A stretch of 64,000 nucleotides of DNA from a virus. Each line of letters begins with the position of its first letter. Position 1 is the first letter of the stretch. Shown piece by piece: positions 59,155 to 59,917 of the stretch. Under the pieces are notes generated by a model, which searched no databases, had not been told where the DNA came from, and saw only the letters and a program-made list of their open reading frames with translations. A program made the position numbers and the translations under genes. The stretch lies in IMG/VR virus record IMGVR_UViG_3300028840_004348. One strand, given 5' to 3'.

Positions 59155-59917
59155 GTCGAGACTTCTAACCCGTCTCGCAGGGATTGAAGGATCGAACTCC
59201 CAAGATCTGGAGGCCCGCGATGCCGAAGTCGAGACTTCTAACCCGTCTCGCAGGGATTGAAGGGCGGTGCGGGTCCTATCATCGCTACTTGGGACATCGG
59301 TGTCGAGACTTCTAACCCGTCTCGCAGGGATTGAAGGAAATGGAGTCCATCGAACCCAACATCGTCGAAATGTCGAGACTTCTAACCCGTCTCGCAGGGA
59401 TTGAAGGTAACTAGACTGAGAATAGCTTGGTTATGTGAAATGCGTCGAGACTTCTAACCCGTCTCGCAGGGATTGAAGAAACGTGTTGAAAACGTGCTAC
59501 GAGCCGGACAACATGTCGAGACTTCTAACCCGTCTCGCAGGGATTGAAGGGAAGCTACCGTCGCCTACGCGACCAGCGAGCCCATCTGTCGAGACTTCTA
59601 ACCCGTCTCGCAGGGATTGAAGGATCGATAGCCGGGCGGCGCACGCCTCCGTTGCGCTGTCGAGACTTCTAACCCGTCTCGCAGGGATTGAAGGCGGAGC
59701 GATCTCGCCGGGCAGTTCGAGCCACAACTCCGGGGGTCGAGACTTCTAACCCGTCTCGCAGGGATTGAAGGCGGTTTTCCGCCTCGGTACCCGAGGTCGG
59801 ATCAAGATGTCGAGACTTCTAACCCGTCTCGCAGGGATTGAAGGGAGTGAAAAGATCGACGCCCTCTCGTGATGCTGCTTCGTCGAGACTTCTAACCCGT
59901 CTCGCAGGGATTGAAGG
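59155..59917 (-). CRISPR. CRISPR array: eleven 36-bp repeats GTCGAGACTTCTAACCCGTCTCGCAGGGATTGAAGG (plus strand), ten spacers of 34-41 bp
   Basis: Repeats at 59155, 59228, 59302, 59372, 59444 (last base G>A), 59515, 59588, 59659, 59736, 59809 and 59882. Spacers are unique. Minus-strand orientation puts the hairpin CGAGAC-GGGTTAGAA-GTCTCG plus AC directly 5' of each spacer. Confidence 0.9.

What the first reader, a model, noticed from the sequence alone, without database searches (positions are those of the whole stretch)
59155..59917. Repeat architecture points to minus-strand transcription and self-processing; no tracrRNA anti-repeat found
Read on the minus strand, each repeat is CCTTCAATCCCTG-CGAGAC-GGGTTAGAA-GTCTCG-AC: a 6-bp stem with a 9-nt loop ending 2 nt (AC) before the spacer. 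That is the 3'-hairpin-then-spacer layout of Cas12a and Cas12j crRNAs; as I recall it, the CasPhi-2 repeat also ends in ...GGGGAC. On the plus strand the hairpin would sit 13 nt from the spacer, which is atypical. I scanned the 181-bp gap and 300 bp beyond both array ends for an 8-nt or longer anti-repeat and found only 7-8-mer matches (ACTTCTAA at 60089; CTTCAAT at 59933), which argues against a tracrRNA. Repeat 5 carries a single G>A change at its last base. Spacer 4 (59408-59443) is markedly AT-rich (about 36% GC) against a roughly 60% GC host element, suggesting targets in a different, lower-GC competitor.
Basis: partly seen in the sequence, partly recalled or inferred. Interest (0 to 1): 0.5.

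Follow-up and report, generated by a model that had tools for sequence, protein, structure and literature searches.

The report
Phage Cas12m CRISPR array, minus-strand

Summary
There are 11 identical 36-nt repeats (one with a terminal G>A) and 10 spacers at 59155-59917.

The adjacent minus-strand gene (60099-62297, 732 aa) is a Cas12m homologue, not Cas12a or Cas12j. Read on the minus strand, the repeat has the hairpin-plus-pseudoknot architecture ending in "AC" seen in experimentally studied Cas12m crRNAs.

- Both helices covary across 34 repeat families.
- A model built only from five published Cas12m repeats hits all 11 repeats on the minus strand only.
- About 29 related phage loci carry their arrays directly downstream of the gene, in the same orientation.

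Minus-strand transcription, effector self-processing and independence from a tracrRNA are therefore well supported by comparison. None of them is shown by RNA data.

No protospacer was found for any spacer.

Two extras were not in the finding. One is a solitary, structure-preserving Cas12m repeat on the plus strand at 25670-25705, with its own promoter and a fixed guide. The other is a 38-nt inverted repeat bracketing leader plus array.

Phage-borne V-M systems were reported in 2024-2026, so this is a new member of a known kind.

The parts
59155..59917 (-). CRISPR array: 11 x 36-nt repeats (minus-strand reading CCTTCAATCCCTGCGAGACGGGTTAGAAGTCTCGAC) and 10 spacers of 34-41 nt. The leader-proximal end is at 59917.
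   Evidence: Family models R1 and R2 hit every repeat on the minus strand only.
59444..59479 (-). Variant repeat 5: G>A at 59479, which is C>U at nucleotide 1 of the minus-strand repeat. This lies upstream of the position where PmCas12m cuts its repeat (after nt 2-3), so the change is probably neutral.
   Evidence: Processing site taken from bioRxiv 10.64898/2026.03.26.714355. Neutrality is inferred.
59918..60098 (-). 181-nt leader between the cas12m stop codon and the first repeat (51% GC). Blocks are shared with the closest relative L009, for example GGACCGCTCGAAATC and CGAAA..ATTGAA.AAAT.
   Evidence: Alignment A3; GC.
60077..60086 (-). Motif TCTTTGACAA just after the cas12m stop codon. It recurs between the gene and the array in 5 of 35 related loci. 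It may be a -35 element or a regulator site, but no -10 element was recognisable.
60099..62297 (-). cas12m-like effector gene, 732 aa. RuvC triad D-E-D (AVDIGW / VLENID / WDQDANAARN) and a C-terminal zinc-ribbon TNB domain. It is about 115-185 aa longer than its relatives because of insertions.
   Evidence: Pfam PF07282. PDB 23vw_A Cas12m E=3.5e-47, 8hhl Cas12m2 3e-11, 8pm4 2.5e-10. Alignment A1.
60053..60090 (.). Right arm of a 38-nt inverted repeat that brackets leader plus array. It contains the TCTTTGACAA motif plus a 22-nt segment absent from L009.
59102..59139 (.). Left arm of the 38-nt inverted repeat, 15 nt beyond the last repeat. It forms 34/38 Watson-Crick pairs with the right arm, and 36/38 on the minus-strand RNA when G:U pairs are counted.
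25670..25705 (+). Solitary Cas12m-type repeat GCTTCAGTGCCAGCGAGATGGCTTCAAAATCTCGAC. It is 27/36 identical to the array repeat, and both the hairpin and the pseudoknot are kept by compensatory changes.
   Evidence: R1 gives 34 bits. It is the top hit in the window with the independent model R2: 24.4 bits, E=1.3e-4.
25637..25666 (+). Sigma-70-like promoter TTGACT-18-TATTTT. It would place the transcription start within the first few nucleotides of the solitary repeat.
   Evidence: 1 site found, 0.0 expected from shuffles. The start position is inferred.
25706..25739 (+). Fixed 'guide' following the solitary repeat (TCCCGTACACATTCTCATCAGATACTCATAGTGT, 41% GC). It is followed by a weak hairpin and a T-run at about 25743-25770. 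The target is unknown.

Best explanation
The array is the guide-RNA locus of a phage-encoded type V-M (Cas12m) CRISPR system.

Proposed mechanism:
- It is transcribed on the minus strand, in the same direction as the cas12m gene just upstream (inferred from comparison).
- Each repeat folds into the V-M scaffold. A 6-bp stem (CGAGAC/GTCTCG) is interlocked with a 3-bp pseudoknot helix (CCC with the GGG at the start of the loop), and the scaffold ends in AC directly before the guide. This is shown by covariation.
- Cas12m binds this scaffold and cuts the precursor itself near the 5' end of each repeat, without a tracrRNA. The product would be crRNAs of roughly 33 nt of repeat plus about 17-20 nt of guide. 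This step is inferred from family membership; the cleavage chemistry is unresolved even for characterised Cas12m.
- The complex then binds PAM-flanked DNA of competing elements or the host and silences it as a roadblock (inferred from the family). Because the RuvC triad here is D-E-D, cleavage cannot be excluded.
For: - Effector identity. The best solved relatives are all Cas12m (23vw_A E=3.5e-47 over residues 120-679; 23vu, 8hhl, 8pm4). Cas12j-3 reaches only 1.5e-4, on the RuvC/TNB tail, and no Cas12a is listed.
- Repeat similarity. The minus-strand repeat aligns column for column with the published Ms, Tf, Ap, Un and Go Cas12m crRNA repeats (Table S5 of PMC11013384; alignment A2). Identity to the Go repeat is 20/36 with the same stem, loop and AC layout.
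- Match to a solved structure. In the Cas12m2 structure, nucleotides -22..-17 pair with -8..-3 and the scaffold ends A(-2)C(-1) (PMC10442227). Here -23..-18 pair with -8..-3, followed by AC.
- Covariation across 34 repeat families. 89.9% of cells are paired, against 34-40% when partners are slid. The covariation score is 0.70 against 0.05-0.16. All 9 pairs show double changes, and 0 of 500 shuffles reach the observed values. The closest relative, L009, changes the pseudoknot pair C:G to A:U.
- Strand. Model R2, built only from the five published repeats, ranks the 11 array repeats 2nd to 12th in the whole window, all on the minus strand. In A2 there are 16 G:U cells and 7 A:C cells.
- Related loci. 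In about 29 distinct IMG/VR phage loci plus L006, the array lies directly downstream of the cas12m-like gene, with the ...GAC end on the gene's strand.
- Leader position. The leader on the cas side is conserved with L009, and in L009 the degenerate repeat is the one farthest from the gene.
- No helper RNA. No anti-repeat lies near the locus and there is no Rfam hit. Published Cas12m effectors are tracr-independent and self-processing.
Against: - There is no RNA data for this phage.
- A hairpin is strand-symmetric, so strand assignment rests on sequence conservation, the G:U excess and synteny.
- Individual R2 hits on the array are weak (11-12 bits, E about 0.4 each). Only their collective ranking is convincing.
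- No recognisable -10 element follows the TTGACA in the leader.
- The protein is only about 27-30% identical to characterised Cas12m and carries insertions, so its processing and binding behaviour may differ.
- A 27/36 complementary sequence exists at 25670-25705 if that region is read on the minus strand.
- No protospacer was found, so function in interference is unproven.
Confidence: 0.85

Rival explanations
1. The array is transcribed on the plus strand and processed by a host class 1 (Cas6-type) enzyme. This would leave an 8-nt ATTGAAGG 5' tag, making it an orphan array that exploits host machinery.
For: The plus-strand repeat ends in ATTGAAGG, which resembles the ATTGAAA(C/G) tag of many type I/III repeats (own knowledge). 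The plus strand also folds, at -9.0 kcal/mol.
Against: - The hairpin would sit 13 nt from the spacer.
- No class 1 cas gene was seen among the ORFs tested.
- Both family models hit only the minus strand.
- All related loci have the array co-oriented with cas12m.
- The plus-strand minimum-energy fold is not the covarying structure.
Confidence: 0.04
2. The system depends on a tracrRNA-like partner. In this reading, the inverted repeat copy at 25670-25705 is read on the minus strand as part of the surrounding operon and pairs with crRNA repeats.
For: The copy has 27/36 complementarity to the crRNA repeat, and the best RNA duplex in the window (-37.8 kcal/mol against a mean of -20.5) falls here. 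Both flanking genes are on the minus strand.
Against: - Its 9 differences include compensatory pairs that keep its own hairpin and pseudoknot while lowering complementarity to the array repeat.
- It is the best match in the window to published Cas12m repeats in the plus orientation.
- Its promoter is on the plus strand.
- Other duplexes of -36 to -37 kcal/mol occur elsewhere by chance.
- Characterised Cas12m effectors need no tracrRNA.
Confidence: 0.05
3. The locus is a Cas12j (Cas-phi) or Cas12a system, as the layout comparison might suggest.
For: The layout is the same, with the hairpin at the 3' end of the repeat next to the guide. The Cas-phi-2 repeat ends in ...GGGGAC (own knowledge). The element is a large phage, as for Cas-phi.
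Against: Cas-phi-3 (7odf) matches only residues 574-716 at E=1.5e-4, against 3.5e-47 for Cas12m, and no Cas12a chain is listed. The repeat matches the V-M consensus, including the pseudoknot.
Confidence: 0.02
4. The array is a carried-along or decaying relic with no current role. On this view, Cas12m in this phage works mainly with the hard-wired solitary guide.
For: No protospacer was found for any of the spacers tested. No adaptation genes were seen.
Against: Ten of the 11 repeats are identical and the one change lies in the part that is trimmed off. The leader is conserved with L009. The spacers are diverse in composition, which suggests acquisition events.
Confidence: 0.06

Closest known systems
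Type V-M CRISPR-Cas12m (MmCas12m2, GoCas12m, MsCas12m, PmCas12m)
   Same: - The effector is homologous, with a RuvC domain and a zinc-ribbon TNB domain.
- The repeat is 36 nt, with a stem plus pseudoknot ending in AC before the guide.
- The array lies next to the effector gene.
- No adaptation genes were seen and there is no tracrRNA.
   Different: - The protein is 732 aa rather than about 545-620 aa. It has Lys/Glu-rich insertions (about residues 150-195 and 385-405) and basic tails.
- It is only about 27-30% identical to characterised members.
- It is carried by a large phage rather than a plasmid or chromosome.
- The array is bracketed by a 38-nt inverted repeat.
- A solitary repeat unit lies elsewhere in the genome.
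MvCas12m locus of myxophage MV-1 (bioRxiv 10.64898/2026.09.14.751636)
   Same: A phage-encoded Cas12m with a D-E-D triad, an adjacent array, no cas1/cas2/cas4, no tracrRNA and no identifiable protospacers.
   Different: It is a different protein (610 aa against 732 aa). That report describes no solitary repeat and no flanking inverted repeat. The relationship of the two phages was not tested.
Cas12j (Cas-phi) of huge phages, and Cas12a
   Same: A single-effector type V system on a large phage (Cas12j). The crRNA has its repeat hairpin directly 5' of the guide, the effector processes the precursor itself, and there is no tracrRNA.
   Different: There is no specific protein homology beyond the shared RuvC/TNB core. 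The repeat consensus and pseudoknot are those of V-M.
Stand-alone repeat-derived RNAs: cr-like regulatory RNAs (Shmakov et al., bioRxiv 10.1101/2023.03.03.530964), TldR guide RNAs (PMC10705468), phage solitary repeat units and RNA anti-CRISPRs (own knowledge)
   Same: The unit at 25637-25770 is a single repeat with its own promoter and a fixed downstream sequence, on a mobile element. It sits beside a DNA-binding effector that silences rather than cuts.
   Different: - No target with the expected complementarity was identified.
- It lies 34 kb from the cas gene rather than next to it.
- It differs at 9 of 36 positions from the phage's own array repeat.
- Whether it guides, regulates or acts as a decoy is unknown.

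Membership tests
Type V-M (Cas12m) CRISPR-Cas | Effector homologous to Cas12m over REC, WED and RuvC, with a C-terminal zinc-ribbon TNB domain | tested here: met
   phmmer against PDB: 23vw_A Cas12m E=3.5e-47 in two stretches covering residues 120-679; 23vu, 8hhl, 8hio and 8pm4 also hit. Pfam PF07282 E=1.1e-13.
Type V-M (Cas12m) CRISPR-Cas | Repeat of 36-37 nt that forms a stem plus pseudoknot scaffold ending in AC immediately 5' of the guide | tested here: met
   Alignment with five published crRNA repeats and 28 phage families. Covariation of both helices. Hits with the independent model R2.
Type V-M (Cas12m) CRISPR-Cas | Array adjacent to and co-oriented with the effector gene; no cas1/cas2/cas4 | tested here: inconclusive
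   Adjacency and co-orientation are met. No Cas1, Cas2 or Cas4 domain was found in the 20 larger ORFs scanned, but the remaining small ORFs and the rest of the phage genome (at least 188 kb) were not scanned.
Type V-M (Cas12m) CRISPR-Cas | No tracrRNA: a single crRNA is sufficient | tested here: inconclusive
   No anti-repeat lies in the flanks or elsewhere, except the inverted solitary repeat at 25670-25705. That copy looks like a sense repeat on the plus strand. Sufficiency of crRNA alone needs an experiment.
Type V-M (Cas12m) CRISPR-Cas | Effector-mediated, Mg-dependent pre-crRNA processing near the 5' end of the repeat | not testable with these tools
   Known for Ms, Mm and Pm Cas12m. Here it is inferred from homology only.
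Type V-M (Cas12m) CRISPR-Cas | DNA binding without cleavage (often a non-canonical RuvC triad) | not testable with these tools
   The triad here is D-E-D. This is as in Cas12m clades 3 and 4 and in the four D-E-D variants characterised in PMC11013384, whose authors report binding without cleavage as common to Cas12m effectors. Activity of this protein is unknown.
Type V-J (Cas12j / Cas-phi) | Effector homologous to Cas12j | tested here: not met
   7odf_A Cas-phi-3 gives E=1.5e-4, restricted to residues 574-716, the shared RuvC/TNB core.
Type V-A (Cas12a) | Effector homologous to Cas12a | tested here: not met
   No Cas12a chain appears among PDB matches up to E=1.
tracrRNA-dependent type V subtypes (V-B, V-E, V-F, V-G, V-K) | Anti-repeat-bearing RNA gene next to the effector or array | tested here: not met
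   The longest complementary or direct match to the repeat in the masked window is 12 nt, in coding sequence far from the locus. There is no Rfam hit in 58900-60300.
Solitary repeat units / cr-like regulatory RNAs (for 25670-25705) | A single repeat outside an array with its own promoter, plus a downstream segment partly complementary to a regulated target | tested here: inconclusive
   The repeat and promoter are met. No target was found in the window or fetched loci. The only hit is an exact 20-nt match in an SDR gene on a bacterial metagenome contig, which is compatible with chance.

The most novel reading that the evidence does not exclude
The phage uses its Cas12m as a programmable repressor. 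A hard-wired guide RNA gene (the solitary repeat at 25670-25705, with its own promoter and a fixed guide) would direct Cas12m to one conserved host or competitor gene, much as TldR proteins do. The 10-spacer array would serve inter-element competition.

The 38-nt inverted repeat around leader plus array would form a double-stranded RNA stem that lets a host RNase III cut the pre-crRNA out of a long phage transcript.

Extra opposite-strand repeats upstream of cas12m in other phages (L013, L030, L042) hint that such accessory guide genes are a recurring and undescribed feature of phage V-M systems.
Probability: 0.25. Interest if true: 0.6.

Novelty: new member of a known kind. Interest (0 to 1): 0.38.

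Why it matters
The locus adds a divergent, unusually long, D-E-D-type Cas12m with a complete 10-spacer array on a large phage. The search also shows that Cas12m-like loci are common in viral contigs: 50 IMG/VR loci, about 29 distinct ones with arrays. A 2026 preprint still called its own case the first phage Cas12m.

For annotation, it fixes the strand and the crRNA architecture, so guides can be designed and protospacers searched in the correct orientation.

The solitary promoter-driven repeat and the inverted repeat bracketing the array are cheap to test. If functional, they would show how a phage wires a DNA-binding CRISPR effector into fixed gene regulation and into its own transcript processing.

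Tried and rejected
**Spacer targets**
- The whole array was searched with blastn against INPHARED phages and gave no match.
- Against PLSDB plasmids there was only a 28-nt match at E=0.7.
- Exact PAM-proximal seeds of spacers 4, 10 and 9 gave no match in IMG/VR.
- A seed of spacer 8 gave no match in GTDB genomes.
- All spacers were compared with the window and the 59 fetched loci, and only background 11-16-nt matches appeared.

**Other copies of the repeats**
- The array repeat as an exact 35-mer gave no match in IMG/VR.
- A 24-nt core of the solitary repeat gave no match in IMG/VR or in GTDB genomes.

**Solitary guide**
- The only hit is an exact 20-nt match in an SDR gene (L058 and L059).
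- The match stops exactly at the searched length, and about one chance hit is expected in a collection of that size. I treat it as probably chance.

**Conservation of the solitary unit**
- The neighbouring 201-aa protein has no relative in IMG/VR.
- Four exact-product look-ups of nearby genes were not on record.

**Flanking inverted repeat**
- It is unique in the window.
- It was not found in 8 related arrays.
- No target-site duplication was seen by eye, so a MITE-like insertion is not supported.
- As a second promoter it is unlikely, because TTGACA is TTCTCA in the distal arm.

**Other checks**
- The sigma-70 scan found no promoter in the leader.
- Rfam gave only two tRNAs.
- The Logan contig L001 shows the array collapsed to one repeat. 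I read this as a probable k-mer assembly artefact, not as a biological variant.

Full report
**1. What is there**

The window holds 11 copies of a 36-nt repeat at 59155-59917, separated by 10 spacers of 34-41 nt. Ten copies are identical. Repeat 5 ends in A instead of G at 59479. Spacer 4 has 36% GC against 59.5% for the window.

Read on the minus strand, the repeat is CCTTCAATCCCTG-CGAGAC-GGGTTAGAA-GTCTCG-AC. On its own this fold is no better than shuffled sequence (z = -0.6), so a single sequence proves nothing. The support comes from comparison with other repeats, described below.

ACTTCTAA is a direct match to the repeat, not a complementary one.

**2. The effector**

The ORF 181 nt upstream on the minus strand (60099-62297, 732 aa) carries the Cas12f1-like TNB domain. 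Among all solved structures it matches Cas12m best. The top hit is 23vw_A at E=3.5e-47, in two stretches spanning residues 120-679. It is followed by UnCas12m4a, Cas12m2 (8hhl, 8hio) and 8pm4. Cas-phi-3, TnpB and Cas12f match only the C-terminal RuvC/TNB core, at E of 1e-4 or weaker. No Cas12a chain is listed.

The RuvC triad is D-E-D: AVDIGW, VLENID and WDQDANAARN. E578 and D669 are invariant among its five closest database relatives. The protein is about 115-185 aa longer than those relatives, because of charged insertions and basic tails.

**3. The repeat is a V-M repeat on the minus strand**

Table S5 of PMC11013384 gives the crRNAs used for Ms, Tf, Ap, Un and Go Cas12m, written as 5'-repeat then spacer. 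The Go repeat is GUGUCAACGCC-AG-CGCGGA-GGCGUCAAA-UCCGCG-AC. The repeat here, on the minus strand, has the same length and layout and 20/36 identical positions.

In the Cas12m2 structure, nucleotides -22..-17 pair with -8..-3 and the scaffold ends A(-2)C(-1) (PMC10442227). Here -23..-18 pair with -8..-3, followed by AC.

I collected 28 further repeat families from related phage loci. On the resulting 34-sequence alignment I tested the hairpin together with a 3-bp pseudoknot helix (CCC with the first three loop bases GGG):

| Measure | Observed | Controls |
|---|---|---|
| Cells paired | 89.9% | 34-40% with partners slid by 1-3 columns |
| Covariation score | 0.70 | 0.05-0.16 (slid) |
| Pairs with changes on both sides | 9 of 9 | |
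| Shuffles reaching the observed score | 0 of 500 | |

The closest relative, L009, turns one pseudoknot pair from C:G into A:U.

A helix alone does not tell the strand, so I ran two further tests.

- In the alignment, G:U cells outnumber A:C cells 16 to 7.
- A covariance model built only from the five published repeats was run over the whole window with filters off. It ranks the 11 array repeats 2nd to 12th, all on the minus strand. Each hit is weak (11-12 bits); the collective ranking is what counts.

**4. Synteny and leader**

A search of IMG/VR with a profile of the protein family returned 50 viral loci, many on contigs of 100-245 kb. In about 29 distinct ones, and in the metagenomic locus L006, an array starts within a few hundred bases downstream of the gene. 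In each the conserved ...GAC repeat end lies on the gene's strand.

The nearest relative is L008/L009 (47% protein identity, repeat 32/36 identical). It shares blocks of the leader on the cas side, and its gene-distal last repeat is the degenerate one. Both are the usual signs of a leader at the cas12m end.

A motif, TCTTTGACAA, follows the stop codon here. It recurs between gene and array in 5 of 35 loci. No -10 element follows it, so I do not call it a promoter.

**5. tracrRNA**

No sequence within the flanks or elsewhere in the window matches the reverse complement of the repeat with 8 or fewer mismatches. blastn-short finds at most 12-nt matches, in distant coding sequence. Rfam finds nothing near the array. 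Published Cas12m effectors bind a single crRNA of about 50-60 nt and cut their own precursor within the repeat. PmCas12m cuts after repeat nucleotides 2-3 and trims the guide to about 17-18 nt.

One exception needed attention. An RNA-duplex scan flagged 25661-25720. It contains GCTTCAGTGCCAGCGAGATGGCTTCAAAATCTCGAC on the plus strand (25670-25705), which is 27/36 identical to the array repeat.

Read on the minus strand, this would be an anti-repeat. Four observations argue that it is instead a sense repeat on the plus strand.

- Its differences include compensatory changes that keep its own stem (CGAGAT/ATCTCG) and pseudoknot (GCC:GGC) while reducing complementarity to the array repeat.
- It is the single best match in the window to the published-repeat model, in the plus orientation (24.4 bits, E=1.3e-4).
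- It scores as high as the array repeats with the 34-family model, and nothing else in the window comes near.
- A sigma-70-like promoter, TTGACT-18-TATTTT, ends 4 nt before it on the plus strand.

**6. How the array most likely works**

The following steps are shown or supported by comparison: family membership of the effector, the repeat scaffold with its two helices, strand, co-orientation and leader position.

The following steps are inferred from the family.

- Cas12m binds roughly the 3' 33 nt of each repeat.
- It cleaves near the repeat's 5' end in a Mg-dependent reaction that does not need RuvC, and the guide's 3' end is trimmed.
- The ribonucleoprotein binds PAM-flanked DNA and blocks transcription or replication.

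The repeat-5 variant is nucleotide 1 of the minus-strand repeat, upstream of the expected cut, so it should not appear in mature crRNA. Because the triad is D-E-D, nuclease activity cannot be excluded. However, the authors of PMC11013384, who tested four D-E-D variants among others, report binding without cleavage as a common feature of Cas12m effectors.

**7. Spacers**

I found no protospacer. The searches were:

- the whole array against INPHARED phages and PLSDB plasmids;
- exact seeds of spacers 4, 10 and 9 against IMG/VR;
- an exact seed of spacer 8 against GTDB genomes;
- all spacers against the window and the fetched loci.

The suggestion that spacer 4 targets a lower-GC element stays untested. 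The myxophage report also found no targets for its Cas12m array.

**8. The element and novelty**

The window encodes a large terminase subunit, baseplate and tail-fibre proteins and a helicase, plus two tRNAs. The identical Cas12m protein occurs on contigs of up to 188.5 kb, so the element is a large phage.

Subtype V-M is described as enriched on plasmids and present in some prophages (PMC11656645). A September 2026 preprint reports a Cas12m locus in a myxophage as the first phage case.

**9. Extras**

- *Solitary unit.* The solitary repeat is followed by a fixed 34-nt segment and then a weak hairpin with a T-run. It looks like a stand-alone guide RNA gene. Its only database match is an exact 20-nt hit in a bacterial SDR gene. 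The hit stops at the searched length and is compatible with chance.
- *Similar extras in other phages.* Opposite-strand repeats upstream of cas12m occur in other phage loci (L013, L030, L042).
- *Inverted repeat.* A 38-nt inverted repeat (59102-59139 and 60053-60090) brackets leader plus array.
  - It is unique in the window and was not found in 8 related arrays.
  - Its inner 22 nt are an insertion relative to L009.
  - It dominates the predicted fold of the collapsed locus (-138 against -84 kcal/mol, z = -11).
  - Two of its four mismatches are G:U only on the minus-strand RNA.
  - A double-stranded processing stem is my preferred guess, but it is untested.

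Noticed in passing
window 25637-25770 (+): A solitary Cas12m-type repeat (25670-25705) sits 34 kb from the array, in a 135-nt gap between two minus-strand genes. It is 27/36 identical to the array repeat, with the stem and pseudoknot kept by compensatory changes. 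It has its own sigma-70-like promoter, a fixed 34-nt 'guide' and a weak hairpin with a T-run. It is the best match in the window to published Cas12m repeats.
   Followed up: partly
window 59102-59139 and 60053-60090: A 38-nt inverted repeat (34/38 complementary, 36/38 with G:U on the minus-strand RNA) brackets leader plus array. It is unique in the window and was not found in 8 related arrays. Its inner 22 nt are an insertion relative to L009. It may be a double-stranded RNA processing stem.
   Followed up: partly
window 60077-60086 (-); L002 3922-3931; L006 9653-9662; L008 about 2308-2317 (same phage as L009); L032 4458-4467: The motif (T)CTTTGACAA lies between the cas12m stop codon and the array in 5 of 35 related loci, at 10-165 nt from the first repeat. 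No -10 element follows it, and its role is unknown.
   Followed up: partly
L013 2938-2973 (-), 1223-1258 (-), 1361-1393 (-); L030 1522-1654 (-); L042 700-807 (-); L035 4-39 (+): Other Cas12m-bearing phage contigs carry extra repeat copies upstream of the gene, mostly on the opposite strand. One in L013 is immediately divergent from cas12m, behind a TGTAGAAT -10-like box. L030 has three copies only about 48-50 nt apart.
   Followed up: partly
L058 2304-2323; L059 423-442: The first 20 nt of the solitary guide match exactly inside a short-chain dehydrogenase gene on bacterial metagenome contigs, with 5' flank GCCCA. The match ends at the searched length, and about one chance hit is expected.
   Followed up: partly
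L001 6158-6539: A Logan assembly of the same phage shows the array collapsed to a single repeat with identical flanks. This is probably an assembly artefact of 36-nt repeats, but it would hide the array from anyone using that contig.
   Followed up: no
window 30770-33523 (-): A 917-aa phage protein carries major vault protein shoulder and repeat domains (PF11978 E=3e-26, PF17795).
   Followed up: no
window 38095-39072 (-), 36088-37035 (-), 33533-34567 (-): Three further phage proteins have notable domains: ARPP-1 (E=1e-28), a nucleoside 2-deoxyribosyltransferase-like domain, and a DHH phosphoesterase.
   Followed up: no
L002/L003 2038-3891: A 617-aa Cas12m-like protein (P0004) has Asn in place of the first RuvC Asp. 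It sits on a phage-like contig (CHAP, peptide deformylase, Cpn10), and no array was detected within the 6 kb fetched downstream or the 2 kb upstream. The TCTTTGACAA motif is still present after its stop codon.
   Followed up: no
window 59918-59945 (-): The last 25 nt of the leader contain AUUGAAG, which can pair with the CUUCAAU at the 5' end of the first repeat, across a small GC hairpin. This may occlude the first processing site.
   Followed up: no
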